DNA from: Mobula hypostoma
Lineage: Eukaryota
NCBI RefSeq assembly: GCF_963921235.1
Contig: NC_086107.1
Coordinates: forward strand, 115,136,001 to 115,200,000
DNA length: 64,000 nt
Direction: 5' to 3'
Both the position numbers and the translations under genes were made by a program. The notes beneath the pieces are model-generated. The model was given only the letters and a program-made list of their open reading frames with translations. It was not told where the DNA came from and ran no database searches. Shown piece by piece: positions 35,101 to 64,000 of the stretch. The number at the start of each line of letters is the position of its first letter. Position 1 is the first letter of the stretch.

Positions 35101-38100
35101 ATAGAGATAGCGAGTGAGAAGCCGAGGGCACGGTCGACGCGAAAGGACAAGGAGATTGTGGTGAGAGACTAAAGGTAATATAAGAAGGTGAGAGGTTGAG
35201 GGTATAAAAGTTAGGGGGGAGAGGTTGACGGTAAGGAGCCGAACGTTAGACGTCAAGGAATGAGAGGCCGAGAGGATAGAAGTCACGGATAAGATGTCAG
35301 CGGTGAGAGGTCAGCGACGCTTACGGCCAGGGGCAGCACGAGAGTTCAGGGTTGCAGGCGAGGAGTCGGGTCAGTTCTGGGGTGAGAGGTCGGGGAGTGA
35401 GAGGTCGAGGTTGAGAGGCTGGGGAGGACGAGTAGTCAGAGCTGAGGGGTTGGTGAAAGGGTAGGTATGAGGAGTTAGAGTGAGAGGTTAGGTAGTGAGG
35501 GGTCGGAGGTCATGCCGTACCATGCCGCCGGGGCGCAACAAGAGCTGAACGAATTCGGGGAAGCGGGCATTGGCAGCGAGCGAGCGACGGAGCATGTCCC
35601 GGTATGCACGCAGCTCCCTGAGTCGGGCCCGCAGCTGCTCGGTCTCGATCCGCCGCTGCACTCGCAGGCGACCCTCCGTCTCCGCCCGCCACAGGGCCCG
35701 AGCACGCTTCCGCTCGTTCTCCTGGGGTGGAGCATCAGAAAGGGATGAAGCGGAGAGACAGCGGTCAAGGAGTCAGCAAGAAGTTTCAAATATTCAGGGA
35801 GCGGGATCAGGAATCCGATTGAGGGCAGGTCGGGATTCAGAGGAGGGGACCAAAAGTCAGAAGGAAAGAGGTCGGGGGGTGGGTCAGGGGTTTAGAGAAG
35901 GGGTCATGAGTCCAGAGAGTTCAAATAGTAAAGGAGAGGAATCGGTGGTCGGAGGGAGGAGTCAGGATAAGAGGAAAACGTCAGGGGTTAAAGATAAGAT
36001 AGGAAGGTCAGAGGTCAGACAGGTCGGAGTTCAGAGTGGATTAGAGAGAGTGGTCAGAAGTCAGAGAGCGGTTTCGGGGATCGGGGGGGTCAATTGGTCA
36101 AAGAGAGGGGTCAGGGTCCAGACGAAGGGATTGGTGGGTCAGAGGGAAGTGTCACAGGGCAGGGTCAGGGGTGATTAGAAGAGAGGTCGAAATGATGCAG
36201 GGCAGAGGGGGAGAGAAAAGGGGTTGTGGGACGGTTTATTGTGATAACGGGAGGGGTCGGAGGGGGAGATGAGTCGGGATCAGTATTGTACCTCCTCTCT
36301 GTTATCACAGAGTTCATCCCACCTTATCGTTCACTCCCTCTTTCGCTTTCTCCCTCCCTCCGCCCGACCATTTCCCCTCTCCCTTTTCCCCTCTCCCCCT
36401 CTCTCCCCGCACCCATCCCCTCTCCATTCTCCCCATCCCACAGCTGCCCTTTCCCTTTTCATCCTCCATCTCTCTCTTCCTCACCACATCTCCATACTCA
36501 CTCTCCCCTATCTCCCTTCTCCTCCTTCAACCTCCTCTTCCCTCTCTCCCTCTCTCCCTCTGCATTGCTCGAGCCCCGTCCCCCATCCACTACCTGAACG
36601 AAGTTGTCGAATTTGAGAATCTGCTCCTTCATCTGGTCACAACGCTTGGTAAAGTTCTGCTTCCACAGACGCATTCTTTCCATCTTAACGTTGAATTCCT
36701 GGCGGGGCAATCACGCAGATAGTCAATATTTCACTTTGTGTCCGACCCTGGGAGTGTGTGATGGGACGGTGTGGAGGGAGTTTCACTCTGTGTCTGACCC
36801 CGGGGGTGTGTGATGGGACGGTGTGGAGGGAGATTCACTCTGTGTCTGACCCCGGGAGTGTGCGATGGGACGCTGTGGAGGGACCTTCACTCTGTGTCTG
36901 ACCCCGGGAGTGTGTGATGGGACGGTGTGGAGGGAGTTTCACTCTGTGTCTGACCCCGGGAGTGTGTGATGGGACGGTGTGGAGGGAGATTCACTCTGTA
37001 TCTGACCCCGTGAGTGTGTGATGGGACGGTGTGGAGGGACCTTCACTCTGTGTCTGACCCCGGGAGTGTGTGATGGGACGGTGTGGAGGGAGACTCTGTC
37101 TTTTACCTGTCTCTGGGAGTCGAGGGCTTGGTTTATATCCATCCCGAGCCTCCTCTTGGCGAGCAGTTGAGTGGAAAGGGACAGTGAGTCATCGTGTGGA
37201 AAGTCCCTAGGTCAACACATTCCTCACTTAGTGTGTCAGACACTCCGGGGGGATCGATGGTTGATTGAAGGGGAGGGAGCGGCCACAGAACCGAAGAGGG
37301 CGGTTCACGGAGACCTGGACTGGTGTAGGGTGCGAGGGGTTCGGAAAGAGAACGATATCAGGGATGAGGGGGTCACGGTGACGGTGAGTGGTGAAGGGGA
37401 GGGAAGGGATTACGGAGACAGGGGCTGTAGACATGGGAAGGGATGCAGAGTATGAGGGGTGCAGGGGAGGGAGGTGAAACTGAGACGGAGAAGGTAGGGT
37501 GGAATAGTGACGGTGGAGGGAGTAACTGGGGAGAGCTGGAGGGAGAAAGGGGTGGGGAGGAGGGAAATCCGGTGCGTAAAGTGTTGCGAGGATGTGCGGT
37601 TGATGGAGAGGGGGAGAAGGCCAGCCGGTGTCCACTGAGATGAGGAGAGGGGAGGAGGGACGGGGAGGGGTAAGTGAGGGGAGGAGAGGGGTGGAGGGAC
37701 GGGGAGGGGTAAGTGAGAAGGGGAGGAGAGGGGTGGAGGGACGAGGAGTGGTAAGAGAGAAGGGGAGGAGAGGGTGGAGGGACGGGGAGGGGTGAGTGAG
37801 AAGGGGAGGAGAGAGGTGGAGGGACGGGGAGGGGTAAGTGAGAAGGGGAGGAGAGGGTGGAGGGAAGGGGAGGGGTAAGTGAGAAGGGGAGGAGAGGGGT
37901 GGAGGGACGGGGAGGGGTAAGTGAGAAGGGGAGGAGAGGGTGGAGGGAAGGGGAGGGGTAAGTGAGAAGGGGAGGAGAGGGGTGGAGGGACGGGGAGGGG
38001 TAAGTGAGAAGGGGAGGAGAGGGGTGGAGGGACGGGGACGGGTAAGTGAGAAGGGGAGGAGAGGGGTGGAGGGACAGGGGGGTGAGTGAGAAGGGGAGGA

Positions 38101-39850
38101 GGGACGCGGAGGGGTAACTGAGAAGGGGAGGAGAGGTGTGGAGGGACGGGGAGTGGTAAGTGAGAAGGGGAGGAGAGAGGTGGAGGGACGGGGAGGGGTA
38201 AGTGAGAAGGGGAGGAGAGGGGTGGAGGGCAGGGGAGGGGTAAGTGAGAAGGGGAGGAGAGGGGTGGAGGGAAGGGGAGGGGTAAGAGAGAAGGGGAGGA
38301 GAGGGTGGAGGGAAGGGAGGGGTAAGTGAGAAGGGGCGGAGAGGGGTGGAGGGAAGGGGAGGGGTAAGAGAGAAGGGGAGGAGAGGGTGGAGGGAAGGGA
38401 GGGGTAAGTGAGAAGGGGAGGAGAGGGGTGGAGGGACAGGGGGTGAGTGAGAAGGGGAGGTGGGACGCGGAGGGGTAAGTGAGAAAGGGAGGAGAGGGGT
38501 GGAGGGACGGGGAGGGGTGAGTGAGAAGGGGTGGAGAGGGTGGAGGGAAGGGAGGGGTAAGTGAGAAGGGGAGGAGAGGGTGGAGGGAAGGGAGGGGTAA
38601 GTGAGAAGGGGAGGAGAGGGGTGGAGGGACGGGGAGGGGTAAGTGAGAAGGGGAGGAGAGGGGTGGAGGGACGGGGACGGGTAAGTGAGAAGGGGAGGAG
38701 AGGGGTGGAGGGTCGGGGAGGGGTAAGTGAGAAGGGGAGGAGAGGGGTGGAGGGTCGGGGAGGGGTAAGTGAGAAGGGGAGGAGAGGGGTGGAGGGACGG
38801 GGAGGGGTGAGTGAGAAGGGGAGGAGAGAGGTGGAGGGACGGGGAGGGGTAAGAGAGAAGGGGAGGAGAGGGTGGAGGGAAGGGAGGGGTAAGTGAGAAG
38901 GGGAGGAGAGGGTGGAGGGAAGGGAGGGGTAAGTGAGAAGGGGAGGAGAGGGGTGGAGGGACGGGGAGGGGTAAGTGAGAAGGGGAGGAGAGGGGTGGAG
39001 GGACGGGGAGGGGTAAGTGAGAAGGGGAGGAGAGGGGTGGAGGGACGGGGAGGGGTAAGTGAGAAGGGGAGGAGAGGGGTGGAGGGTCGGGGAGGGGTAA
39101 GTGAGAAGGGGAGGAGAGGGGTGGAGGGTCGGGGAGGGGTAAGTGAGAAGGGAAGGAGAGGGGTGGAGGGTCGGGGAGGGGTAAGTGAGAAGGGGAGGAG
39201 AGGTGTGGAGGGACGGAGAGGGGTAAGTGAGAAGGGGAGGAGAGAGGTGGAGGGACGGGGAGGGGTAAGTGAGAAGGGGAGGAGAGGGGTGGAGGGACGG
39301 GGAGGGGTAAGTGAGAAGGGGAGGAGGAGAGAGACGGGAGAGCGAGGTATGATACCGAGGGAAAGAGAAAGAGATGAGGAGGGGAAGAGTCGGACGGGAA
39401 GGGGATATTGATGGGAGGAAGAGAAAGGGTGGAGGAGGAGAGAGGCGGAGAAGGGTGGAGTGAAGGCGAGGGGCAGAGAGACGGACGGAGGGAAAGGGGG
39501 AAAAGGCAGAGGGATGAGAGACGGGAATGTGGGGAGAAAGGTATTGAGACGAAGTGGGTGGGAGTGATGGGTGCAAAGACAGAGACAGGAAAGGTTGGGA
39601 GAGGCACCGGAGCTGAGAGACGGGGAGAGATGAAAAGGGGGTGGAGAGAGGCAAACGGGAGGGCGAGGGGGAAGCAGGCTATGGGAGACAGATAGGGCCG
39701 AGTGAAGGGAGAGGGGCAGAGAGGAGGGCTGTGGAGCGAGACGGGGGGTTTGAGAGATGGGGAGAGGGTGGTGTCGGGGATCATTTACTGTAACAGTTCC
39801 TCCCGGTACTGGGACCGGAAATGTTCGGACAGTCGGCGTCTGGTGTCCAT
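32058..39850 (-). CDS. CCDC42: Coiled-coil domain-containing protein 42 (CCDC42/CFAP73 family), complete 7-exon gene, 314 aa
   Basis: Exons (- strand): 39850-39789, 37206-37107, 36698-36594, 35721-35521, 34681-34460, 33597-33439, 32153-32058; total 945 nt. Translation includes LSEHFRSQYREELLQ, ENERKRARAL, RYRALVSTRE...KARLNRYLEE and WTHIQNTAARQTLVLGTVKMATLNLYQ, which match CCDC42 family motifs from memory. The paralog CFAP73 is not fully excluded. Confidence 0.85.
33439..33597 (-). CDS. CCDC42: CCDC42 exon 6 (DAAWTHIQNTAA...DTLLQLQK)
   Basis: tag| ... |gtgggg. Confidence 0.9.
34460..34681 (-). CDS. CCDC42: CCDC42 exon 5 (FRELSEVPVRYRALVST...LRW)
   Basis: cag| ... |gtgagt. Confidence 0.9.
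35521..35721 (-). CDS. CCDC42: CCDC42 exon 4 (ENERKRARALWRAETE...)
   Basis: cag| ... |gtacgg. Confidence 0.85.
36594..36698 (-). CDS. CCDC42: CCDC42 exon 3 (EFNVKMERM...KFDNFVQ)
   Basis: cag| ... |gtagtg. Confidence 0.87.
36730..37100. repeat. 52-nt satellite, about 7 copies, filling CCDC42 intron 2
   Basis: Same unit as 51085-64000. Confidence 0.95.
37107..37206 (-). CDS. CCDC42: CCDC42 exon 2 (DFPHDDSLSLSTQLLAKRR...DSQRQ)
   Basis: tag| ... |gtaaaa. Confidence 0.8.
37640..39330. repeat. ~42-nt polypurine minisatellite, about 40 copies, CCDC42 intron 1
   Basis: ggggaggagaggggtggagggacggggaggggtaagtgagaa. Confidence 0.95.
39789..39850 (-). CDS. CCDC42: CCDC42 exon 1 (MDTRRRLSEHFRSQYREELL)
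   Basis: ATG (aaaATGG context) ... |gtaaat. Confidence 0.8.
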
Positions 39851-40283: not shown

Positions 40284-40369
40284 ACACACACACACACACA
40301 CATACACTCACACACACACTCACACACACACTCTCACACACACACACACACACACTACACACACACACT

Positions 40370-40400
<31 letters not shown>

Positions 40401-40721
40401 ACACTCACACACACACACTCATATACACACACACTCATATACACACACTCACACACACACACACACACTCATATACACACACACACACACACTCATATAC
40501 ACACACTCACACACACACACACACACTCATATACACACTCATATACACACACACACACTCACATACACACACACACACACTCACACACACTCACACACTC
40601 ATATACACACACACACACACACACACTCACACACACACTCACACACTCATACACACACACACACACACTCACACACACACACACACACTCACACACACAC
40701 ACACTCACACACACACACACT

Positions 40722-40764
<43 letters not shown>

Positions 40765-40903
40765 ACACACACACTCACACACACACACACACACTCACAC
40801 ACACACACTCATATACACACACTCACACACACACACACTCACACACACACACACACACTCACATACACACACACACACTCATATACACACACACACACAC
40901 ACA

Positions 40904-40950
<47 letters not shown>

Positions 40951-41147
40951 ACACACTCACACACACACACACACTCACACACACACACTCATATACACAC
41001 ACTCACACACACACACACTCACACACACACACTCATATACACACACTCACACACACTCACACACACACACACTCATATACACACACACACACTCATACAC
41101 ACACACACACACACACTCACACACTCATATACACACACACACACACA

Positions 41148-41204
<57 letters not shown>

Positions 41205-41308
41205 ACACACACACACACACACTCACACACACACACACACACACTCACACACACTCACACACTCACACACACACACACACACACTCACACACACACTCAC
41301 ACACACAC
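40284..41308. repeat. ~1-kb imperfect (CA)n microsatellite
   Basis: CA repeats interrupted by CT and TA. Confidence 0.95.
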
Positions 41309-41523: not shown

Positions 41524-44500
41524 CTAACGGAGAGAAAGACGGTCAATAATAGTGAGCAGGGGAGAGGGGTCACTGAGGGATGGTGTGAGGGAGCTGGATT
41601 AACGTCAGTGACAGTGCAGGGGAGAGGGGTCAGTGAGGGACAGTGTGGGGGAGCTGGATTAATGTCAGTGGGAATACAGCAGTGACAGGGTGCAGGGGGA
41701 GAGGGGTCACTGAGGGATGGTGTGAGGGAGCTGGATTAACGTCAGTGACAGTGCAGGGGAGAGGGGTCAGTGAGGGACAGTGTGGGGGAGCTGGATTAAT
41801 GTCAGTGGGAATACAGCAGTGACAGGGTGCAGGGGGAGAGGGGTCACTGAGGGATGGTGTGGGGGAGCTGGATTAACGTCAATGGGGATACAGTCAGTGA
41901 CAGTGCAGGGGGAGAGGGGTCAGTGAGGGACAGTGTGGGGGAGCTGGATTAACGTCAGTGGCGATACAGCAATGACAGGGTGCAGGGGGAGAGGGGTCAC
42001 TGAGGGATGGTGTGGGGGAGCTGGATTAACGTCAATGGGGATACAGTCAGTGACAGTGCAGGGGGAGAGGGGTCAGTGAGGGACAGTGTGGGGGAGCTGG
42101 ATTAACGTCAGTGGCGATACAGCAATGACAGGGTGCAGGGGGAGAGGGGTCACTGAGGGATGGTGTGGGGGAGCTGGATTAACGTCAGTGACAATGCAGG
42201 GGGAGAGGGGTCACTGAGGGACAGTGTGGGGGAGCTGGATTAACGTCAGTGGCGATACAGCAGTGACAGGGTGCAGGGGGAGAGGGGTCACTGAGGGACA
42301 GTGTGGGGGAGCTGGATTAACGTCAGTGGGGATACAGTCAGTGACAGTGCAGGGGGAGAGGGGTCACTGAGGGATGGTGTGGGGGAGCTGGATTAACGTC
42401 AATGGGGATACAGTCAGTGACAGTGCAGGGGGAGAGGGGTCACTGAGGGATGGTGTGGGGGAGCTGGATTAACATCAATGGGGATACAGTCAGTGACACA
42501 TGATACTGGGAGACAGAGGTCACAGGGACGATGTGACAGGTCCCAAGAATAAATTACCCACCGTCTGGGGCCGGGTGAACTCGAGGAGCTCTCGCACCTC
42601 CTGGGACAAAGACACCTTCACGCTGTGGTAGTCAAGATCCTCAGGAAGCCTCATTTCCTCGTCTCTCCTCACCTCCTCCATCTCCTGTTGCTGTAGCAGC
42701 AGCAGGCCCTGATAAACAGCTGCGGGGAGGAAGAGGGCGTGAATGAGGGAGAACAGGAGGGAGGATGGAGTGAGGGAGAATAGGAGGGAGGGAGGATGGA
42801 GTAAAAGGGAGGGGAGGGAGGATGGAGTGAAGAGGGGGAGGGGAGGGAGGGAGGATGGAGTGAGGGAGTATAGGAGGGAGGGAGGGAGGATGGAGTGAAG
42901 GGGAAGGGAGGAGTGAAGGGGTAGAGTGGTGGGTAGGGCAGAGTGGGAGCAGATTGAGAGGGAAAGGGAAGGGGTAGGAAGAGAGGGATTTGTGTCTCCC
43001 CATTCACTCACCCTCAATCTTGAATCTGTCAGCGAGTTGCCCCTCGGTAGGAAGGGAACCAAGAGAGTGTGGGAGGGCGTCCACCAGGGTCCTCAGCTCC
43101 ACCCCTGGCTGGCGTAGCATTTCCAAAGCACTGAGGGAGGGGGCAGTGAGAGGTCAGGTGACAGGTCCGGGGTCAGACACCTCCCCTCACACATCCCATC
43201 CTCTTCCTACTCACTCTCCCACCTTGCCTTCCCTCTCCCTCAATCCCCCTCTTTCCTACCACATATGCCCCTCTCCCCATCTACCACCTGCCCCCTCCAT
43301 CAATACACACCTCACTTCTCCATCCCGTCTCATCACTCTGTCTCCGTTCCCTCCACCTCCCCCATCCCACGCAGTCTCTTCATGCTCACACATTGCCTCC
43401 CCATCACTACATCCTCAGCTTCCTTCTCTGCCCACACCCTCTCTCCACCTCCCCCTGCACCCAGCTGCCTCTCGGTTCCCCCTTCCTTCACCATTCCTTC
43501 CCCACCCTCCCGGCCCCATTTATTTTCCACATCCCATGACTCTCATCTCTTTCCTAACTCCCATCTACACATCTCACCCCTCCCAACCCACATTCTCTAC
43601 CCTTCCCCCAATCTCAGCTACACCTCCTCCCCAACAGGGGCCCCACATTCACTGATCCCACTACGCTGAGCAGGTGTGTGGCTGCACAGTAACCGAAATG
43701 CTTACGCGCACATACCCTTTGCTACCGCAAAGCTGGAATTTTGTTAGCTGCTGTTAATATAATTTTGGCATCTAGGTTAATATAATTGTCAAATACCCTG
43801 AAATTAATGTGTTAATGAATATAAATTTTCTAGACATCACTGAGGTCCCAAGAATAAATTACCCACCGTCGAGTAACTCCCGCACCTCCTGGGACCTAGA
43901 CACCTTCACGCTGCGGTAGTCAGGATCCTCAGGAACATACCACAACTTTTACTCTGAAATGTTTTGAGTTTCAACCTATTTACATTGTCAGTGTTTCAAG
44001 TTACAACACTGTTGGAAATTGCAACAATAAACACAGAATGGAAGTCGGTAGCTCATTGTTAATGAACTGCTGGCCTGCTGAACGCCAATGCCATCTAGGT
44101 CAAACATTTTGCTTTTGCCATTGCGCCTGCCAGTTGTTTTGACTGCCTAACATCGTTTACTTGAGTTGTGAGCTGTGGTTTGTGTTTGTCTGATATGCAT
44201 ATTACAAAAGAAAATTTAAGTGTAAAAAGATCTGGCTCAGAGTAATAGTTGGTCTGTGCAGCTGTAAATAAATTAGAGGGAACGTTGTCTGCATCCCACT
44301 GACCTGGGCCGGTCACTGCGCTCTGGGCTGACCTTTGTCTCCGGCAGGAGGCGTAGCCATTGGGTGCCTGAGTAACAGACGGACTTGAGGGTAGCCAATC
44401 CGTGCTCGAGGGCCTGACTGACACGCAGAGCCTCCTGCTGCCGCTTCCGGGACACACAGCCCGCCTCCGCGTAACCTGACACAACAGAATAGGTCAGAGG

Positions 44501-47500
44501 AGGCAGAGCCAGTGACTGCAAGCAGGAGTCAGAGAGGGAGCCGCGGACCCGCTGCACGTACCTCGGAAGGAGTGGAGTCAGAGGGGCGGAGTGGGAGGCA
44601 GGGTCAGAGATGGGTGGGATATACAGGGGGCGCAGATCTGGGGGGGGGTGTGCAGAGGGGCAGAGCCAGAGAGAGGTTTGGTATACAGGGGAACACTCAC
44701 AATGCGCTGGAGGAACTCAGCAGGTCAGTCAGCATCAGTTGAAAAGATTAGTCGACGTTTCGGGCCGAAACCCTTCATCAGGACTGAAGGAAGAACTTTG
44801 GGGAGGGTTTGAAGAATGCTGGTAGTTGAAAAAAACAGTAATTTTTAAGATAAAGGGGTGGGGGAGGGGAAGCAGGGAGGTGATTGGTGGGAGAACAACG
44901 TGCAGTAGTAGAAGGTGGCGGAACTATGAGGGAGGTGATGTGAAATAGGGATAGAGGAAGGGAAGGGGAGAGAATTACCGGAAGTTGGAGAATTCTATGT
45001 TCATACCAAGGGGCTGGAGACTACTTAGACGGTATATGAGGTGTTGCTCCTCCAACCTGAGTTTAGCCTCATCATGGCAGTAGAGGAGGCCATGTATGGA
45101 CATATCTGAATGGGAGTGGGAAGCAGAGTTGAAGTGGGTGGCTACCGGGAGATCCTGTCTGTTGTGGCGGACAGAGTGGAGGTGCAGGTATACAGGGGGC
45201 AGAGCCAGGGAGGGGCCGGATATAGAGGGGCAGAGTCAGGAGGGGTAGGGTATACAGAGGGGCAGAGCCAGCGAGGGGCCGGATAAAGAGAGGGGCAGAG
45301 TCGGGAGGGGTGGGGTACACAGAGGGGCAGAGCCAATGAGGGGCTGGATATAGAGGGGCAGAGTTAGAAAGGGGCTGGATATAGAGATGGGCAGAGCCAG
45401 TATGGGGTGACACACAGACTGCTGTGCGTGCGTTGGAAGGTTTGGAGTCGAAGGCGTTGGCCAAAGATGGTTTGGAATCATTAAAGGGGTGGAGCCAGTG
45501 ACAGAGGGAATGAATCAGGGAACCTCAGTGAACAGACTATGACAAGGAAAGGGTTGCCCACTCACTCCCAATAGACCCTTCGCTAACCCTCCCACTCCCC
45601 AATCCACACCCTCCTACCTCTCTCCCCCCCAACACCCTCCACTCTTCCCTTCCCTCTCCCCATGCCATCACGATTTCCTCTCCCTCGTTCTCCTCCCTTT
45701 TTGTACATTCCTCCCATCTTCGACCATACCCATTCCCCTTCATCCTCTTACCCTCTCCCCAATTCACACCGTCTACCCCTCCATCCTCCCACTCCCTCCG
45801 TCATCCCTTGCCCTACCCTCCGCTCCTCCTTTCCCTTGGTACATCCCTACCCCTGGCGGTCAGCCTCTGGTCCGCGTTGTCTGGCCGCAGCCCGAGCCGG
45901 AACTCCACCCGCCCACTGAACATGCGGTAGGGTTCATTGGTGCCCAGCGTGGTCAGGTCGTCGATCAGCACCCCAACGTACCCCTCGGTCCGTCCCACTA
46001 CGAACGGGCTAGACCCCCGCCCACGGAGGGCGGCGTTAATGCCTGCGATCAGCCCCTGGAGTTTGGGGGAGATGTGGGGACAGAGAGTGGGAAGGAATGG
46101 GGGGGAGAGAGGAAGACAGGAGCAGGTGGAAGGAGGGGTAGAGAGGAGGTGGGGAAAGGTGGGAGATGGAGAGAGCTGTGAACTGGTGCACTAATAAATT
46201 CTGCATCCACATTCCCACCGCTAACACCAGCATTTCCCGCCTCACCGCCAGGTTCCCCCCTCCCATCCACGTGAAGTGGTGGGTGCTGTGGTCTGGAACA
46301 CAGACCAATCCCACAGATGGTGAGCGGTGGGGTTTGGTGAGGGTGGACCACCACAGGTAAAGAACACAGTCCGATCCCACTGTCAGTAATGGGGAGGGGA
46401 GAAGCGGCCCCGGGGGGGCCATGCAAAGTTTCCCCGAGCAGGACACAGTCGGTGACGAGGAGGGAAGACTCTCCAAAGAGCGGCAGAGTAGGAAAACGTG
46501 GGGATAAAAGGGAAGGGGGAGTGCGCACTGTCCTTGGAGAGGCACAGCCCGATCCCGCCACCTGTGAGGGAGTCGGGGAAGGGAGGGAGGGTCCGCCAAG
46601 GGTAACTGAGGGTTCAGGGACAGATGGAACCCCCGGGGGTGGGGAGGGAGTTGTCAGATTACCTGAGCAGCTGCCTCCTCGTAGCCAGTGGTCCCATTAA
46701 TCTGTCCCGCCAGGAAGAGACCCTGAACCGCCTGGGTCTCCAACCAGGGGGTCAACTGTCGGGGGTCCACATAGTCATACTGTACCCCGTACCCTGTGGG
46801 CAGACAGAGAAGGGGGCAGTGTGAGGGGGGGAAGAGAAGAGAGTGGGGAGGGGGAGGGGAAAGAGATGGGGAGGAGAAGGAAGGGGGGAGGATGGAGGGA
46901 GAGGGGAGAATGGGGTTTGACGGGGATGGCGAGGAAGGGGAAGAGGGGAGGGGGAAGGTGAAGAGGGGGAGGGGAGGGGAAAGGAGGGAGGGGTGGGGAA
47001 AGGAAGGAGTGGGAAGGGCAGGGGGAAGGAGTGGGAAGGGGAAAGGAAGGAGGGGGAGGGGGAAGGGGAGGGGAGGGGGAAAGAGGGGGAGAGGAGAATG
47101 GGGTTTGAAAGGGTTTGCAAGGGGGTGCGGGAGAAGGATTGATGGCAGGTTGGGAGATGGGGGTTGAGAGGGGGATTAAAGAGAGGGCAGGGAATAGAGG
47201 GAAGAAGGGAAAAGTAAAACTTCCACTCCTTATAAACCAATGAGCTCTACCCCCACCTCCTCACCCCTCCATCTTCTCTTCTGTCACCTAATCTTTTCCT
47301 TCACCACTGTCACCTCCTCTTCCCTTCCCCTCGCCACACCTCCCAATTCTCTTCACTGTCCTCTTCCCCCCTCCCCTCCCTTCCCACTCTCCCTCAAACT
47401 TCTTCTTTCTTTCCCTGCCATCTCCACAACTTTCATCATCCCAATCCTTACCTATCCTCAAGTCCTTCCCCCTCCCTCCCTCCTCACTTCTCCTCCTTTG

Positions 47501-51084: not shown

Positions 51085-54000
51085 AACTTCACTCTGTGTC
51101 TGACCCCGGGAGTGTGTGATGGGACGGTGTGGAGGCAGATTCACTCTGTGTCTGACCCCGGAAGTGTGTGATGGGACGGTGTGGAGGGAGCATCACTCTG
51201 TGCCTGATCCCGGGAGTGTGCGATGGGACGGTGTGGAGGGAACTTCACTCTGTGTCTGATCCCGGGAGTGTGTGTTGGGTCGGTGTGGAGGGAGTTTCAC
51301 TCTGTGTCTGACTCCTGGAGTGTGTGATGGGATGGTGTGGCGGGGGAACTTCATTCTATGTCTGACCCCGGGAGAGTGCGATGGGACGGTGTGGAGGGTA
51401 CTTCACTCTGTGTCTGACCCCTGGAGTGTGTGATCGGACAGTGCGGAGGGAGATTCACTCTGTGTCTGACCCCGGGAGTGTGTGATGGGACGGAGCGGAG
51501 GGAGATTCACTGTGTGTCTGACCCCGGGAGTGTGTGATGGGACAGTGCGGAGGGAGATTCACTCTGTGTCTGACCCCGGAAGTGTGTGATGGGATGGTGT
51601 GGCGGGGGAACATCATTCTATGTCTGACCCCGGGAGTGTGTGATGGGACGCTGTGGAGGGAGCTTCACTCTGTGTCTGACCCCGGGAGTGTGTGATGGGA
51701 CGGTGTGGAGGGAGCTTCACTCTGTGTCTGACCCCGGGAGTGTGTGATAGGACGGTGTGGAGGGAGTTTCACTCTGTGTCTGACCCTGGGAGTGTGTGAT
51801 GGGACGGTGTGGAGGGAGTTTCACTCTGTGTCTGACCCCGGGAGTGTGTGATGGGACGGTGTGGAAGGAGATTCACTCTGTGTCTGACCCCGGGAGTGTG
51901 TGATGGGACGGTGTGGAGGCAAGATTCACTCTGTGTCTGACCCCGGAAGTGTGTGATGGGACGGTGTGGAGGGAGCATCACTCTGTGCCTGATCCCGGGA
52001 GTGTGCGATGGGACGGTGTGGAGGGAACTTCACTCTGTGTCTGATCCCGGGAGTGTGTGTTGGGTCGGTGCGGAGGGAGTTTCACTCTGTGTCTGACTCC
52101 TGGAGTGTGTGATGGGATGGTGTGGCGGGGGAACTTCATTCTATGTCTGACCCCGGGAGAGTGCGATGGGACGGTGTGGATGGTACTTCACTCTGTGTCT
52201 GACCCCTGGAGTGTGTGATGGGACAGTGCGGAGGGAGATTCACTCTGTGTGTGACCCCGGGAGTGTGTGATGGGACGGAGCGGAGGGAGATTCACTGTGG
52301 GTCTGACCCCGGGAGTGTGTGATGGGACAGTGTGGAGGGAGATTCACTCTGCGTCTGACACCGAGAGTGTGTGATGGGACGGTGTGGAGGGAGCTTTACT
52401 CTGTGTCTGATCCCGGGAGTGTGTGATGGGACGGTGTGGAGGGAGCTTCATTCTGTGTCTGATCCCGGGAGTGTGTGATGGGACGGTATGGAGGGAGTTT
52501 CACTCTGTGCCTGACCCCTGGAGTGTGTGATGGGATGGTGTGGCAGGGGAACATCATTCTATGTCTGACCCCGGGAGAGTGCGATGGGACGGTGTGGAGG
52601 GTACTTCACTCTGTGTCTGACCACTGGAGTGTGTGTTGGGACAGTGCGGAGGGAGATTCACTCTGTGTCTGACCCCGGGAGTGTGTGATGGGACAGTGTG
52701 GAGGGAGATTCACTCTGTGTCTGACACCGAGAGTGTGTGATGGGACGGTGTGGAGGGAGCTTCACTCTGTGTCTGATCCCGGGAGTGTGTGATGGGACGG
52801 TATGGAGGGAGTTTCACTCTGTGTCTGACCCCTGGAGTGTGTGATGGGATGGTGTGGCGGGGGAACTTCACTCTATGTCTGATCCCGGGAGAGTGCGATA
52901 GAACGGTGTGGAGGGAGCATCACTCTGTGTCTGACCCCGGGAGTGTGTGATGCGACGGTGTGGAGGGAGATTCACTCTGTGTCTGACCCCGGGAGTGTGT
53001 GATGGGACGGCGTGTAGGGAGATTCACTCTGTGCCTGACCCCTGGAGTGTGTGATGGGACGGTGTGGAGGGAGCTTCACTCTGTGTCTGATCCCGGGAGT
53101 GTGTGATGGGACGTTGTGGAGGGTGTTTCACTCTGTGTCTGACCCCGGGAGTGTGTGATGGGACAGAGTGGAGGGAATTTCACTCTGTTTCTGACTCCAG
53201 GAGTGCGTGATGGGACGGCGTGCAGGGAGATTCACTCTGCGCCTGACCCCGGGAGTGTGTGATGGGACGGTGTGGAGGGAGCTTCACTCTGTGTCTGACC
53301 CCGGGAGTGTGTGATGGGACGGTATGGAGGGAGGTTCACTCTATGTCTGACCCCAGGAGAGAGTGATGGGACGGTGTGGATGGAACTTCACTGTGTGTCT
53401 GAGCCCGGGAGTGTGTAATGGCGCGGTGTGGATGGAATTACACTATGTGTCTGATACCGGGAGTGTGTGACGGGACTGTGTGGAGGGAGATTCACTGTGT
53501 GTCTGACCCCTGGAGTGTGTGATGGGACGGTGGGGAGGGAGAGTCACTGTGTGTCTGACCCCGGGAGTGTGTGACGGGACGGTGTGGAGGGAGTTTAACC
53601 CTGCGTCTGACCCCTGGAGTGTGTGATGGGACGGTGCGGAGGGAGATTCACTCTGCATCTGACCCCGGGAGTGTGTGATGGGACGGTGTGGAGGGAGCTT
53701 CACTCTGTGTCTGACCCCGGGAGTGTGTGATGGGACGGTATGGAGGGAGGTTCACTCTATGTCTGACCCCAGGAGAGTGTGATGGGACGGTGTGGAGGGA
53801 GCTTCACTCTGTGTCTGACCCCGGGAGTGTGTGATGGGACGGTGTGCAGGGAACTTCACTCTGTGTCTGACCCCGGGAGTGCGTGATGGGACGGTGTGGA
53901 GGGAGATTCACTCGTGTATGACCCCGGGAGTGTGTGATGGGACAGTGTGGAGGGAGCATCACTCTGTGTCTGACCCCGGGAGTGTGTGATGCGACGGTGT

Positions 54001-57000
54001 GGAGGGAGATTCACTCTGTGTCTGACCCCGGGAGTGTGTGATGGGACGGCGTGTAGGGAGATTCACTCCGTGCCTGACCCCGGCAGTGTTGATGGGACGG
54101 CGTGGAGGGAGTTTCACTCTGCGTTTGACCCCTGGAGAGTGTGATGGTACGGCGTGGAGGGAGACTCTGTGTCTGACCCCTGGAGTGTGTGATGGGACCG
54201 TGTGGAGGGAATTTCACTCTGTGTCTGATCCCGGGAGTGTGGGATGGGACGGTGTGGAGGGAGATTCACTCTGTGTCTGACCCCAAGAGTGTGTTATGGG
54301 ACGGTATGGAGGGAGATTCACTCTGTGTCTGACCCAGGGAGTGTGTGATGGGACGGTGTGGAGGGAGCATCACTCTGTGTCTGACACCGAGAGTGTGTGA
54401 TGGGACGGTCTGGAGGGAGTTTCACTCTGTGTCTGACCCCTGGAGTGTGTGATGCGACGGTGTGGAGGGAGATTCACTCTGTGTCTGACCCCTGGAGTGT
54501 GTGATGGGACGGTGTGGAAGGAGTTTCACTCTGTGTCTGACCCCGGGAGTGTGTGATGGGACGGTGTGGAGGGAGCTTCACTCTGTGCCTGACCCCGGGA
54601 GTGTGTGATGGGACGGTGTGGAGAGAGCTTCACTCTGCATCTGACCCCAGGAGTGTGTGATGGGACGGTGTGGAGGGAGCTTCACTCTGTGTCTGACACC
54701 AGAAGTGTGTGATGGGACGGTGTGGATGGAGCATCATTCTGTGTCTGATCCTGGGAGTGTGTGATCGGACGGTATGGAGGGAGTTTCACTCTGTGTCTGA
54801 CCCCTGGAGTGTGTGATGGGATGGTGTGGAGGGGGCACTTCATTCTATGCCTGACCCCAGGAGTGTGTGATGGGACAGTGTGGAAGGAACTTCACTCTGT
54901 GTCTGACCCTGGGAGTGTGTGATGGGACGGTGTGGAGGGAGCTTCACTCTGTGTCTGACCCCGGGAGTGTGTGATGGGACGGTGTGGAAGGAACTTCACT
55001 CTGTGTCTGACCCTGGGAGTGTGTGATGGGACGGTGTGGAGGGAGCTTCACTCTGTGTCTGATATCGGGAGTGTGTGATGGGACGGTGTGGAGGGAGCTT
55101 CACTCTGTATCTGATCCTGGGAGTGTGTGATGGGACGGTATGGAGGGAGTTTCACTCTGTGTCTGACCCCTGGAGTGTGTGATGGTATGGTATGGAGGGA
55201 GATTCACTCTGTGTCTGACCCCTGGAGTGTGTGATGGGATGGTGTGGCGGGGGAACTTCATTCTATGTCTGACCCCGGGACTGTGTGATGGGACGGTGTG
55301 GAGGGAGATTCACTCTGTGTCTGACCCCTGGAGTGTGTGATGGGATGGTGTGGCGGGGGAACTTCATTCTATGTCTGACCCCGGGACAGTGCGATGGGAC
55401 GGTGTGGAGGGAGCTTTACTCTGTGTCTGATCCCGGGATTGTGTGATGGGACGGTGCGGAGGGAGATTCACTCTGTGTCTGACCCCGGGAGTGTGTGATG
55501 GGACGGTGCGGAGGGAGATTCACTCTGTGTCTGACCCCGGGAGTGTGTGACGGGACGGTGTGGAGGGAGTTTCACCCTGCGTCTGACCCCTGGAGTGTGT
55601 GATGGGACGTTGTGGAGGGAGTTTCACTCTGTGTCTGACCCCAGGAGAGTGTGATGGGACGGTGTGGAGGGAACTTCACTCTGTGTCTGATCCCGGGAGT
55701 GTGTGATGGGACAGAATGGAGGGAACTTCACTCTGTGTCTGACCCCTGGAGCGTGTGATGGTACGGCGTGGAGGGAGATTCACTCTGTGTCTGACCCCGG
55801 GAGTGTGTGATGGGACGGTGTGGAGGGAACTTCACTCTGGGTCTGATCCCGGGAGTGTGTGATGGGACGGTATGGAGGGAGTTTCACTCTGTGTCTGACC
55901 CCTGGAGTGTGTGATGAGACGGTGTGGAGGGAGCTTCACTCTGCGTCTGACCCCAGGAGTGTGTGATAGGACGATGTGGAGGGAGTTTCACTCTGTGTCT
56001 GACCCCTGGAGTGTGTGATGAGAGGTGTGGAGGGAGCTTCACTCTGTGTCTGTTCCCCGGAGTGTGTGATGGGACGGTATGGAGGGAGTTTCACTCTGTG
56101 TCTGACCCCTGGAGTGTGTGATGAGACGGTGTGGAGGGAGCTTCACTCTGCGTCTGACCCCAGGAGTGTGTGATAGGACGATGTGGAGGGAGTTTCACTC
56201 TGTGTCTGACCCCTGGAGTGTGTGATGAGAGGTGTGGAGGGAGCTTCACTCTCTGTCTGTTCCCCGGAGTGTGTGATGGGACGGTGTGGATGGAACTTCA
56301 CTGTGTGTCTGACTCCGGCAGTGTGTGATGGGACGGTGTGGAGGGATCTTCACTCTGTGTCTGATCCCGGGAGTGTGTGATGGGACGGTGTGGAGAGTGT
56401 TTCACTCTGTGTCTGACCCCTGGAGTGTGTGATGGGACGGTGGGGAGGGAGATTCACTCTGTGTCTGACCCCGGGAGTGTGTGATGGGACGGTATGGAGG
56501 GTGTTTCACTCTGTGTCTGACCCCTGGAGTGTGTGATGGGACGGTGCGGAGGGAGTTTCACTCTGCGTCTGACCCCGGGAGTGTGTGATGGGACGGTGTG
56601 GAGGGAACTTCACTCTGTGTCTGACCCCGGGTGTGTGTGATGGGACGGTGTGGAGGGAAGTTCTCTCTGTGTCTGACGCCGGGAGTGTGTGATGGGACGG
56701 TGTGGAGGGAATTTCACTCTGTGTCTGATCCCGGGAGTGTGGGATGGGACGGTGTGGAGGGAGATTCACTCTGTGTCTGACCCCAAGAGTGTGTAATGGG
56801 ACGGTGTGGAGGGAGATTCACTCTGTGTCTGATATCGGGAGTGTGTGATGGGACGGTGTGGAGGGAGCATCACTCTGTGTCTGACACCGAGAGTGTGTGT
56901 GATGGGACGGTGTGGAGGGAGATTCACTCTGTGTCTGACCCCGGGAGTGTGTGATGGGACGGTATGGAGGGTGTTTCACTCCGTGTCTGACACCTGGAGT

Positions 57001-63000: not shown

Positions 63001-64000
63001 GTGCGGAGGGAGATTCACTCTGTGTCTGACCCCGGGAGTGTGTGATGGGACGGTGTGGAGGGAGATTCACTCGTGTATGACCCCGGGAGTGTGTGATGGG
63101 ACGGTGTGGAGGGAAGTTCTCTCTGTGTCTGACGCCGGGAGTGTGTGATGGGACGGTGTGGATGGAATTTCACTCTGTGTCTGATCCCGGGAGTGTGGGA
63201 TGGGACGGTGTGGAGGGAGATTCACTCTGTGTCTGACCCCAAGAGTGTGTAATGGGACGGTGTGGAGGGAGATTCACTCTGTGTCTGACATCGGGAGTGT
63301 GTGATGGGACGGTGTGGAGGGAGCATCACTCTGTGTCTGACACCGAGAGTGTGTGCGATGGGACGGTGTGGAGGGAGATTCACTCTGTGTCTGACCCCGG
63401 GAGTGTGTGATGGGACGGTATGGAGGGTGTTTCACTCTGTGTCTGACCCCTGGAGTGTGTGATGGGACGGTGCGGAGGGAGATTCACTCTGCATCTGACC
63501 CCGGGAGTGTGTGATGGGACGGTGTGGAGGGAGTTTCACCCTGCGTCTGACCCCGGGAGTGTGTGATGGGACGTTGTGGAGGGTGTTTCACTCTGTGTCT
63601 GACCCCAGGAGAGTGTGATGGGACGGTGTGGAGGGAACTTCACTCTGTGTCTGACCCCGGGAGTGTGTGATGGGACGGTATGGAGGGAGTTTCACTCTGT
63701 GTCTGACCCCTGGAGTGTGTGATGGGATGGTGTGGCGGGGGAACTTCATTCTATGTCTGATCCCGGGAGAGTGCGATAGAACGGTGTGGAGGGAGCAGCA
63801 CTCTGTGTCTGACCCCGGGAGTATGTGATGCGACGGTGTGGAGGGAGATTCACTCTGTGTCTGACCCCGGGAGTGTGTGATGGGACGGCGTGTAGGGAGA
63901 TTCACTCTGTGCCTGATCCCGGGAGTGTGTGATGGGACGGTATGGAGGGAGTTTCACTCTGTGTATGACCCCTGGAGTGTGTGATGGGATGGTGTGGAGG
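51085..64000. repeat. 52-nt satellite array (about 248 copies in window, open-ended) within an MTO1 5' intron
   Basis: cactctgtgtctgaccccgggagtgtgtgatgggacggtgtggagggagatt; period 52 measured between 51091 and 51143. Confidence 0.97.

What the first reader, a model, noticed from the sequence alone, without database searches (positions are those of the whole stretch)
44692..45186. Intact-looking hammerhead ribozyme carried by a Penelope fragment, sense-oriented inside an MTO1 intron
Seen: the minus strand at 44785-44750 reads AGUC CUGAUGA A GGGU-UUCG-GCCC GAAA C GUC GACU. This holds both conserved hammerhead boxes, a closing stem I (AGUC/GACU), a UUCG-capped stem II and a loop-less palindromic helix III (ACGU). 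It lies just downstream of a GIY-YIG C-terminal coding remnant, on the MTO1 pre-mRNA strand, about 275 nt upstream of the acceptor of exon 44475-44304. Established: Penelope-like elements carry minimal hammerheads that are thought to cleave as dimers, and an extra A after CUGAUGA occurs in some natural hammerheads. Inference: the motif could nick the intron of a housekeeping gene co-transcriptionally, or pair in trans with the many genomic copies of this repeat. It may equally be inert as a monomer.
Basis: partly seen in the sequence, partly recalled or inferred. Interest (0 to 1): 0.7.

Follow-up and report, generated by a model that had tools for sequence, protein, structure and literature searches.

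The report
Penelope retrotransposon hammerhead in MTO1 intron
This is a standard loop-less hammerhead ribozyme motif riding on a truncated Penelope-like retrotransposon copy that landed in an intron of the MTO1/GidA gene; it is one of about 89,000 such motifs in this genome and is most likely inert where it sits.

Summary
The minus strand 44785-44750 reads AGUC-CUGAUGA-A-GGGU-UUCG-GCCC-GAAA-C-GUC-GACU. It lies in the 3' UTR of a 495-bp, 5'-truncated Penelope-like element (PLE) copy flanked by a 12-bp target-site duplication. The copy is in sense orientation in a 1,375-nt intron of a GidA/MTO1-family gene, which spliced contigs in 4 of 4 runs confirm.

The motif meets every sequence feature published for metazoan PLE 'min-HHRs'. 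These are both core boxes, an unpaired base between positions 9 and 10.1, a G10.1-C11.1 pair, a palindromic loop-less helix III and a 4-bp helix I.

It is not special. The bare core pattern occurs 89,374 times in this 3.48-Gb genome (reversed-pattern control 89), about once per 39 kb. The family majority reads CUGACGA, so the window's 'canonical' U7 is a CpG decay at a free position.

No second hammerhead lies in the host transcription unit, so no cis dimer can form. Energy models disfavour the active fold. Published work found no monomer cleavage. Rfam's hammerhead models find nothing, but they also miss 20 of 20 sister loci, so that negative is uninformative.

Verdict: passive cargo of a known kind; low interest.

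The parts
44692..45186 (-). 5'-truncated copy (about 495 bp) of a young, high-copy Penelope-like retrotransposon family: the end of the ORF plus the whole 3' UTR
   Evidence: 2,841 first-look candidates, 40 scored, 95-97% identity; homology to 29 other loci runs 45185 to about 44690; 26 of 29 other loci extend 53 to 1,112 bp further 5', which is variable 5' truncation.
45187..45198 (-). Target-site duplication, 5' copy (CCCCTGTATACC)
   Evidence: the exact 12-mer occurs only twice in the 64 kb, abutting both ends of the element. One-mismatch relatives lie 62 bp further out on each side, which is the period of the tandem repeat that was hit.
44680..44691 (-). Target-site duplication, 3' copy (CCCCTGTATACC)
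44975..45157 (-). C-terminal ORF remnant (60 codons plus TAA), the end of the element's RT-endonuclease ORF
   Evidence: P0002; 58 of 60 identical to residues 422-481 of the 481-residue open stretch of locus L007 (P0004). P0004 residues 384-452 hit GIY-YIG PF01541, E 0.0024, 18.6 bits, below the 22.6-bit cut-off; the nearest atlas cluster (score 0.98) carries RVT_1 on 48% and GIY-YIG on 47% of members.
44750..44785 (-). Minimal type-I hammerhead motif (min-HHR): helix I 44785-44782 with 44753-44750; core CUGAUGA 44781-44775; unpaired A 44774; helix II GGGU/GCCC 44773-44770 with 44765-44762; UUCG loop 44769-44766; GAAA 44761-44758; loop-less palindromic helix III ACGU 44758-44755; C17 at 44754
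   Evidence: The feature list comes from PMC4209133.
44753..44754 (-). Predicted scissile bond (after GUC, between 44754 and 44753)
   Evidence: Position inferred from the hammerhead consensus. No cleavage data exist: the runs available are contigs, which cannot show RNA ends.
44692..44733 (-). Second conserved block and the element's 3' terminus (GAUGCUG...CCUGCUGAGUUCC...CAGC...UGUGAGUGUU), shared across diverged families
   Evidence: identity to the window copy over 30 positionally sampled copies is 0.66 for the block and 0.76 for the end, against 0.50 for the spacer and 0.21 further upstream. The role as RT entry region is inferred from PMC11167929.
44476..45850 (-). Host intron (1,375 nt) of the GidA/MTO1-family gene that contains the element
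   Evidence: table 5: the joint 44473/45849 (cut +2), ends CT..AC on the + strand, is seen in X1, X2, X4 and X19.
44304..44475 (-). Downstream host exon
   Evidence: spliced contigs join it to 46054-45849 and to 43130-43012. The same contigs carry the GIDA exon 46794-46662 and the SAM_GIDA_C exon 42719-42562.
45851..46054 (-). Upstream host exon
   Evidence: tables 5 and 8.

Best explanation
The motif is the ordinary loop-less minimal hammerhead (min-HHR) that Penelope-like retrotransposons carry near their 3' end. A PLE of a young, very abundant family was reverse-transcribed from its 3' end into a 62-bp tandem repeat inside an MTO1/GidA intron. Copying stopped early, leaving 495 bp (the ORF tail plus the 3' UTR) flanked by a 12-bp target-site duplication. 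Because the hammerhead lies only about 95 nt from the element's 3' end, almost every copy inherits it, however truncated. In the parent element the motif is thought to process tandem or read-through PLE transcripts, working as a dimer and/or with help from the element's own protein (inferred from the literature). In this lone copy it is passive cargo. Helix III (ACGU) cannot close within one molecule, no partner lies in the same pre-mRNA, and the intron is removed normally. Shown here: the anatomy, the family membership, the insertion structure, the host context and the genome-wide abundance. Inferred: catalytic inertness at this locus and the role in the parent element.
For: Anatomy.

Family context:
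- There are 2,841 first-look candidates at about 96% identity.
- 5' truncation is variable: 26 of 29 other loci extend 53 to 1,112 bp further.
- 16 of 30 aligned copies carry an optional tail of about 35 nt, and the window copy lacks it.
- Close inverted pairs are always head-to-head: 6 of 6 among the matches and 8 of 8 within 1 kb among the 100 rows listed.
- The target-site duplication is 12 bp.

Abundance: the core pattern has 89,374 matches against 89 for the reversed control.

Conservation island between families: free hammerhead positions are 0.85-0.94 identical to the window copy. The spacer scores 0.50, the downstream block 0.66, the terminal 13 nt 0.76 and the upstream 33 nt 0.21. Many contigs match only 44750-44786 and run on unlike on both sides (table 7).

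No selection after insertion: non-CpG divergence from the majority is 9 of 780 cells inside the motif and 122 of 7,650 in the rest of the UTR. At CpG sites it is 28 of 300 and 33 of 240.

No cis partner: in 71 kb covering the transcription unit, the only other relative has 8 of 36 mismatches, lies on the opposite strand and is outside the gene. Thirty shuffles gave 0 hits.

Energetics:
- The 36-mer's minimum-energy fold is an inactive rod at -10.1 kcal/mol.
- The helix I + II shape scores -7.9, with a Boltzmann weight of 0.014.
- The double hammerhead scores -14.7. Two free monomers score -20.2 and a non-catalytic duplex -28.2.
- Helix I and II pair probabilities are 0.010-0.016 in the 139-nt and 391-nt contexts.

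Splicing: the intron is correctly spliced in 4 of 4 runs.

Literature:
- A single min-HHR showed no detectable cleavage, and dimers showed low activity (PMC4209133, parts 1-2 read).
- The PAc hammerhead cleaves only with the PLE protein, is not needed for insertion in vitro, and no RNA-seq reads end at its site (PMC11167929, passages).
Against: No experiment or raw-read data bear on cleavage at this locus. All runs offered were assembled contigs and only guessed to be RNA, and contigs cannot show RNA ends. In the PAc system a single-hammerhead RNA was cleaved once the PLE protein was added. This family is young, and one copy keeps a 481-codon open stretch, so helper protein might exist in some cells. 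The window copy also keeps the whole conserved 3' module that such a protein would bind. The bin containing the motif has very high summed contig depth (3.7k to 97k, against 20 to 490 on exons), so partner RNAs may be plentiful, although summed contig depth is a poor measure. Nearest-neighbour energies ignore tertiary contacts, co-transcriptional folding and chaperones. There are no compensatory base changes in this genome to prove RNA-level selection, because the helices are nearly identical between families. The protein-level PLE assignment rests on a sub-threshold Pfam hit and an atlas lead.
Confidence: 0.87

Rival explanations
1. The copy is catalytically active in the host pre-mRNA. It cuts the MTO1 intron co-transcriptionally, either through trans dimers with other transcribed copies or with help from PLE protein bound to its intact 3' module.
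For: All core and helix features are intact. The PAc hammerhead is protein-assisted and was cleaved as a single-motif RNA in vitro. The family is young. The genome holds about 89,000 potential partners, and summed contig depth over the motif is high.
Against: The double-hammerhead fold is 5.5 kcal/mol worse than two free monomers and 13.5 worse than a non-catalytic duplex. Helix I and II probabilities in context are about 1%. Published monomers showed no detectable cleavage and dimers only low activity. No reads ended at the PAc site in vivo. The intron is spliced normally in 4 of 4 runs. The motif density of one per 39 kb on either strand implies thousands of sense intronic copies, which would be hard to tolerate if each one cut.
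Confidence: 0.06
2. At the family level the motif is conserved for a reason other than self-cleavage, for instance as a protein-binding or template-recognition element, or as a selfish passenger of PLEs. On this view it is hammerhead-shaped but not a working ribozyme in vivo, here or in the parent element.
For: It is the best-conserved part of the 3' module across families, yet shows no compensatory changes. Catalytic mutants did not affect PAc insertion in vitro. Naiad and Chlamys PLEs thrive without hammerheads, and the authors raise the idea that HHRs 'simply parasitize PLEs' (PMC8557442, passages). The predicted ground state is an inactive rod.
Against: The exact catalytic core is what is preserved, and C3/G8 mutations abolish and then rescue PAc cleavage. 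PLEs of fungi and plants carry fully active canonical hammerheads.
Confidence: 0.05
3. The insertion has been co-opted by the host as a regulator of MTO1 splicing or expression.
For: It is in sense orientation and 278 nt from the acceptor.
Against: The copy differs from the family majority at only 14 of 471 non-CpG sites, so it is recent. Divergence inside the motif equals that of the flanks across copies. Splicing is normal. The position is expected by chance at this motif density.
Confidence: 0.015
4. It is a chance resemblance to a hammerhead.
For: No Rfam hammerhead hit, even at E <= 10. The 36-mer's folding energy is unremarkable (z = -1.07 against 500 shuffles).
Against: The pattern has 89,374 matches against 89 for the control. 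It is inherited from a repeat family. All published min-HHR features are present. Rfam misses 20 of 20 sister loci as well.
Confidence: 0.005

Closest known systems
Metazoan PLE minimal hammerheads (min-HHR) of Cervera & De la Pena 2014, found in Xena, Poseidon and Neptune elements of fishes, the coelacanth, Xenopus and reptiles
   Same: Type-I motif with both core boxes, an unpaired base between positions 9 and 10.1, a G10.1-C11.1 pair, a loop-less palindromic helix III and a short helix I. It sits in the PLE terminal repeat or 3' region and occurs mostly as single dispersed motifs from truncated copies.
   Different: Helix II here is 4 bp with a UUCG loop, whereas 7-8 bp were described for Schistosoma. 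The copy number is far higher than the roughly 4,000 (coelacanth) and 9,000 (Xenopus) quoted there: 89,374 exact core matches, though the descriptors differ.
PAc (Poseidon of Anolis carolinensis) hammerhead, PMC11167929
   Same: A PLE hammerhead without a stable helix III. The element also has a 30-40 bp 'tail' signature and an internal RT entry region near its 3' end.
   Different: In PAc the motif overlaps the ORF start within the pLTR. Here it lies 189 nt after the stop codon and about 58 nt before the 3' terminus. Protein assistance has been shown for PAc only.
Ultraconserved intronic hammerheads of amniotes (Rfam HH9 and HH10); the reference title was seen, the details are recalled
   Same: A hammerhead on the sense strand of an intron of a protein-coding gene.
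   Different: Those are recalled as canonical monomers with a stable helix III, conserved across species and recognised by Rfam models. This one is a young repeat copy with a loop-less helix III and no Rfam hit.
Non-LTR retrozymes and tandem hammerhead satellites (newt satellite 2, Schistosoma SINE-like elements), bioRxiv 10.64898/2026.07.22.740005
   Same: Type-I hammerheads related to PLE pLTRs. Monomeric derivatives are scattered through genomes, and 42-44% of them overlap introns in Xenopus.
   Different: Retrozymes are head-to-tail tandem repeats that allow dimer formation. This locus has a single motif in 71 kb.

Membership tests
Metazoan PLE min-HHR | Catalytic boxes CUGANGA and GAAA, with a non-G base at position 17 | tested here: met
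   CUGAUGA at 44781-44775, GAAA at 44761-44758, GUC with C17 at 44754.
Metazoan PLE min-HHR | [quoted passage not shown] | tested here: met
   A at 44774. 29 of 30 family copies keep an A there (column 12). The feature is named in PMC4209133.
Metazoan PLE min-HHR | G10.1-C11.1 pair closing helix II | tested here: met
   G44773 pairs with C44762. The genome's dominant family has G-U here instead (GCCT).
Metazoan PLE min-HHR | No loop 3; palindromic positions 15.2-16.2, so that helix III forms only between two copies | tested here: met
   ACGU at 44758-44755 with no intervening loop.
Metazoan PLE min-HHR | Short helix I (4-5 bp) with open ends | tested here: met
   AGUC/GACU, 4 bp. The dominant family has UAGUC/GACUG, 5 bp including one G-U pair.
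Metazoan PLE min-HHR | Located in the terminal repeat or 3' region of a PLE | tested here: met
   It lies in the 3' UTR, 189 nt after the ORF stop and about 58 nt before the element's end.
Metazoan PLE min-HHR | Self-cleavage as a dimer | not testable with these tools
   This needs in vitro transcription. The energy model does not favour the double hammerhead (-14.7 against -20.2 for two monomers).
Metazoan PLE min-HHR | Covariation or compensatory changes in helices among families | tested here: inconclusive
   The helices are nearly invariant between the families sampled. Only loop changes and a one-sided C-to-U (G-U) change were seen.
Rfam hammerhead families (Hammerhead_1, Hammerhead_3, HH9, HH10, Hammerhead_II) | Covariance-model hit at or near the gathering score | tested here: not met
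   There were 0 hits at gathering in the window and none at E <= 10 in 44600-44950. There were also 0 hammerhead hits in 20 of 20 other natural loci with intact cores, so these models do not see this class.
Penelope-like element | Single ORF with a reverse transcriptase followed by a GIY-YIG endonuclease | tested here: inconclusive
   GIY-YIG PF01541 scores 18.6 bits, below the 22.6-bit cut-off, on P0004, and no RVT hit appears at E <= 1. The atlas's nearest cluster (0.98) has RVT_1 on 48% and GIY-YIG on 47% of members. The window remnant alone gets 0 Pfam families.
Penelope-like element | Inverted 5'-truncated copy adjacent to the 5' end (head-to-head pairs) | tested here: met
   Seen in the family, not at this locus: 6 of 6 close opposite-strand pairs and 8 of 8 within 1 kb among the 100 rows are in minus/plus order. 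An old example lies in the window at 16840-17030.
Penelope-like element | 30-40 bp 'tail' present at one end of some insertions | tested here: met
   16 of 30 aligned copies carry about 35 extra bases after ...GTGAGTGTT, and the window copy lacks them. The feature is described in PMC8557442.
Penelope-like element | Variable 5' truncation and target-site duplication (target-primed reverse transcription) | tested here: met
Non-LTR retrozyme | Head-to-tail tandem repeats, each with a hammerhead | tested here: not met
   There is one motif in 71 kb on the gene's strand.
MTO1 / MnmG (GidA) gene (the host) | GIDA (PF01134) and SAM_GIDA_C (PF13932) domains encoded by collinear exons on one strand | tested here: met
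   Five over-cut-off GIDA exon matches and one over-cut-off SAM_GIDA_C match lie on the minus strand of contig C45 around the window, and no other locus is over the cut-off. Spliced contigs join these exons. PF21680 gave no match. The name MTO1 for the eukaryotic orthologue is established knowledge and comes from no call.

The most novel reading that the evidence does not exclude
The window copy keeps the entire conserved 3' module (hammerhead plus downstream block) in sense orientation inside a pre-mRNA, and the family is young. In cells that express the element's RT-endonuclease, the protein could bind this module and assist hammerhead cleavage, as shown in vitro for the Anolis PAc element. 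That would sever the MTO1 intron. With tens of thousands of similar intronic copies, bursts of PLE expression would then nick host pre-mRNAs across the transcriptome.
Probability: 0.05. Interest if true: 0.6.

Novelty: new member of a known kind. Interest (0 to 1): 0.15.

Why it matters
As it stands this is an ordinary repeat-borne motif, and the value of the check is in filing it correctly. It is a genuine PLE min-HHR, but one of about 89,000 in the genome, so its position in a housekeeping intron carries no special meaning. Two practical lessons follow. Rfam's hammerhead models are blind to this loop-less class, so a missing hit must not be read as refutation. The 'canonical' CUGAUGA here is a CpG decay of the family's CUGACGA. 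The scale of the motif in this genome, about one per 39 kb, makes the organism a good system for a still-open question: whether PLE hammerheads ever cleave in vivo, and whether sense intronic copies are selected against.

Tried and rejected
1. Rfam search as a test. There were 0 hits at gathering in the whole window and no hammerhead family at E <= 10 in 44600-44950. I rejected this as evidence against the motif because 20 of 20 other natural loci with intact cores also get no hammerhead hit.

2. Pfam on the two short translations (P0002, P0003): 0 families. PDB sequence search with P0003 gave only a chance hit at E 0.54, and with P0004 nothing relevant. PF21680 in the genome gave 0 matches. 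The exon was confirmed instead by spliced contigs.

3. RNA evidence for cleavage. No RNA holder is listed; all 22 runs are kept as contigs and only guessed to be RNA. Table 6 lists no places where molecules begin or end, which contigs cannot show anyway.

4. 5' transduction. I asked whether the host pre-mRNA had been copied from the element's internal RT entry site, carrying upstream intron or exon sequence elsewhere. Searching the genome with 45401-46060 found only the locus itself at 100%, plus 14 weak matches at 67-85% identity over sub-stretches of query positions 225-504. Rejected.

5. A conserved 'off-switch' hairpin. The upstream CCUUCA pairs with UGAAGG of the core in the 139-nt fold and is also present in the dominant family. 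It is absent from three other family types in the sample (L041, L051, L059). Not pursued.

6. A fuzzy-regex scan for decayed partner motifs timed out. I replaced it with a Hamming-distance scan.

7. The primary paper on dimer cleavage (Lunse et al., PMC5785218) is not held. I saw only its reference entry and a review's summary.

8. Earlier notes of this scan around the locus: nothing to show.
Full report
**1. The observation.**
The pattern CTGATGAN{4,30}GAAACGTC occurs once in the window, against 0.01 expected from 100 shuffles. A simple min-HHR descriptor of my own finds only this site in 64 kb on both strands. That descriptor requires CTGANGA, a gap of 6-30 nt, GAAA, and a helix II of at least 3 bp with an optional 5' bulge.

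**2. What carries the motif.**
The stretch 45185 to about 44690 (minus strand) is one copy of a very abundant repeat. A search of the window's own 3.48-Gb genome gave 2,841 first-look candidates. Forty were scored, and most were 95-97% identical over the whole query.
- **5' end.** Comparing the other loci with each other, 26 of 29 extend 53 to 1,112 bp further 5' than the window copy. The 5' end at 45185/6 is therefore a random truncation, as expected for target-primed reverse transcription.
- **3' end.** There are two classes. In the 30-copy alignment, 16 copies carry about 35 extra bases after ...GTGAGTGTT. The window copy and 13 others stop there. This matches the optional 30-40 bp 'tail' described for Penelope-like elements (PMC8557442, passages). 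That tail has been tied to internal initiation of reverse transcription (PMC11167929, passages).
- **Target-site duplication.** The exact 12-mer CCCCTGTATACC occurs only twice in the window, directly abutting both ends of the element (45198-45187 and 44691-44680). One-mismatch relatives lie 62 bp further out on each side. Removing the element plus one 12-mer restores the period of the 31/65-bp tandem repeat it landed in. This is a genuine 12-bp target-site duplication.
- **Inverted pairs.** Close inverted pairs of family copies are always head-to-head. This holds for 6 of 6 pairs and for 8 of 8 opposite-strand pairs within 1 kb among the 100 rows listed. It is another published PLE hallmark.

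**3. The coding remnant.**
The minus strand 45157-44975 translates to 60 residues followed by a stop codon.
- On its own the remnant matches no Pfam family.
- It is 58 of 60 identical to the last 60 residues of a 481-codon open stretch in a longer natural copy.
- Residues 384-452 of that protein hit GIY-YIG (PF01541) at E 0.0024 and 18.6 bits, below the 22.6-bit cut-off.
- The nearest protein-atlas cluster (score 0.98, 211 of 256 features shared) carries RVT_1 on 48% and GIY-YIG on 47% of its members. This is a lead only.

The PLE assignment rests mainly on the structural hallmarks in section 2.

**4. The host gene.**
- Pfam GIDA (PF01134) finds five over-cut-off exon-sized matches on the minus strand of this contig. 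Four matches lie inside the window, at about 50397-50212, 49458-49348 (this one below the cut-off), 47843-47643 and 46797-46663. Two more lie just beyond the window's end.
- SAM_GIDA_C (PF13932) matches at about 42678-42553 (44.5 bits) and 41529-41467. No other locus in the genome is over the cut-off.
- Laying four runs (contigs; three coded organisms) on 42400-46900 gave spliced contigs joining 46794-46662 | 46054-45849 | 44473-44304 | 43130-43012 | 42719-42562, with GT..AG ends on the minus strand. The joint across 44476-45850 is seen in 4 of 4 runs.

The element therefore lies in sense orientation in a 1,375-nt intron. That MTO1 is the eukaryotic name for this family is established knowledge and comes from no call.

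**5. Is it a hammerhead of a known kind?**
I read parts 1-2 of 4 of Cervera & De la Pena 2014 (PMC4209133). They list the features of metazoan PLE 'min-HHRs':
- the two catalytic boxes;
- a G10.1-C11.1 pair;
- palindromic positions 15.2-16.2 with no loop 3;
- a short helix I.

All of these are present here.

Rfam finds no hammerhead family at gathering in the window or at E <= 10 around the site. It also finds none in 20 of 20 other natural loci with intact cores. The negative says nothing about this class.

**6. How special is it?**
- **Abundance.** The bare pattern CTGANGAN{12,14}GAAACGTC has 44,569 forward and 44,805 reverse matches in the genome, against 51 and 38 for the reversed-pattern control. 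That is about one per 39 kb, so a 64-kb window is expected to hold one or two.
- **Derived U7.** In the window's own family, 25 of 30 aligned copies read CTGACGA and 5 (including the window) read CTGATGA. Contigs show both states at 44777 (table 3). The canonical-looking U7 is a CpG decay at a position that may be any base.
- **No selection after insertion.** Within the family, the motif decays like its surroundings. Non-CpG divergence from the column majority is 9 of 780 cells inside the motif and 122 of 7,650 in the rest of the UTR. At CpG sites it is 28 of 300 and 33 of 240.
- **Age.** The window copy differs from the majority at 14 of 471 non-CpG and 3 of 26 CpG-site positions.

**7. Conservation between families.**
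I compared the window copy with 30 positionally sampled copies, mostly from other families. That sample was chosen by the 14 fixed core bases, so I count only the positions the pattern left free.

| Segment | Identity to the window copy |
|---|---|
| Upstream 33 nt | 0.21 |
| Next 12 nt upstream | 0.41 |
| Helix I, 5' strand | 0.87 |
| Bulge + helix II + loop | 0.85 |
| Helix I, 3' strand | 0.94 |
| Spacer | 0.50 |
| Downstream block | 0.66 |
| Terminal 13 nt | 0.76 |

Independently, many contigs match only 44750/1 to 44785/6 and run on unlike on both sides (table 7). The hammerhead is therefore a conservation island in the active lineages. There are no compensatory double changes, only loop differences and a one-sided C11.1-to-U change. 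RNA-structure selection is not proven in this genome.

**8. Can this copy cut?**
- **Geometry.** Helix III (ACGU) cannot close within one molecule.
- **No partner in cis.** I scanned 71 kb, the window plus 7 kb fetched to cover the 5' exons. The only other relative has 8 of 36 mismatches. It lies on the opposite strand at 16898-16933, outside the gene. Thirty shuffles gave 0 hits.
- **Monomer energetics.** The 36-mer's minimum-energy fold (-10.1 kcal/mol) pairs G5-G8 with C15.2-C17 in an inactive rod. The helix I + II shape scores -7.9 and has a Boltzmann weight of 0.014.
- **Dimer energetics.** The double-hammerhead dimer scores -14.7. Two free monomers score -20.2, and a non-catalytic extended duplex scores -28.2.
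- **Context.** In 139-nt and 391-nt contexts, helix I and II pair probabilities are 0.010-0.016.
- **Published behaviour.** A single min-HHR showed no detectable cleavage, and dimers or trimers showed low activity. The Anolis PAc hammerhead cleaves only when the PLE protein is present and is dispensable for insertion in vitro, and no RNA-seq reads end at its site. A review summarises the dimer experiments of Lunse et al., whose own paper I could not open.
- **Intronic copies elsewhere.** In Xenopus, 42-44% of retrozyme-homologous copies overlap introns, a modest depletion (preprint, abstract and section 11 part 1).

I recall, from no call, that hammerheads engineered into introns did not block splicing (the exon-tethering experiments). 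Even rare cleavage might therefore be harmless.

**9. Caveats.**
- Nothing here measures cleavage. The only runs available are contigs guessed to be RNA.
- Energy models ignore tertiary contacts and proteins.
- The family is young and the copy retains the whole 3' module, so protein-assisted cleavage in PLE-expressing cells is not excluded. That is the novel case, which I put at about 5%.
- A test of one bolder idea was negative: that host sequence upstream of the module had been retro-copied elsewhere.

**10. Verdict.**
The functional inference is not supported. This is a new instance, and probably a new family, of a well-described kind: the PLE min-HHR. It sits where chance would put it and is most likely inert.

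Noticed in passing
whole genome G000: The core pattern CTGANGAN{12,14}GAAACGTC has 89,374 exact matches (reversed-pattern control 89), about one per 39 kb. This is roughly ten times the min-HHR counts quoted for the coelacanth and Xenopus in PMC4209133, though the descriptors differ. The commonest variant has helix II GGGU/GCCU, with a G-U pair at 10.1-11.1.
   Followed up: partly
window 16840-17030: An older head-to-head inverted pair of extremely truncated PLE 3' ends. The left copy is truncated inside the hammerhead. The right copy has a decayed motif (8 of 36 mismatches, GAAG in place of GAAA) and carries the tail.
   Followed up: partly
window 51088-64000 and 36729-37092: A 52-bp satellite of at least 248 copies (12.9 kb, running off the window's end) lies inside an intron of the same MTO1-family gene. 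Seven copies of the same unit lie downstream of the gene.
   Followed up: no
window 37642-39326, 40284-41308, 41606-42498, 18213-19454: Further large arrays are present: a 42-bp G-rich repeat (41 copies), (AC)n of 512 copies, a 76/153-bp repeat reaching the last exons of the gene, and a 47-bp repeat (27 copies).
   Followed up: no
G000:C1:2252449-2252751 and C1:2455945-2456465: Two same-strand pairs of intact hammerhead cores lie 275 and 493 nt apart. They might be short head-to-tail (retrozyme-like) arrangements.
   Followed up: no
L031:1464-1537, L034:1505-1596, L035:1434-1525, L037:1461-1542: Head-to-head inverted PLE ends form long perfect hairpins. On both strands these score as sub-threshold miRNA-precursor matches (42-52 bits, against gathering scores of 74-97).
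   Followed up: no
window 44790-44771: In the 139-nt context the upstream CCUUCA pairs with UGAAGG of the core and bulge, and GUUUCG pairs with CGAAAC. These two hairpins exclude the hammerhead fold. The CCUUC element is also present in the genome's dominant family but not in three other family types (L041, L051, L059).
   Followed up: partly
window 45159-45585: One contig of run X2 (427 nt, depth 7.19, no differences) runs unspliced across the element's 5' junction into the intron. It is either intron-retaining RNA or DNA carried in that run (table 8).
   Followed up: no
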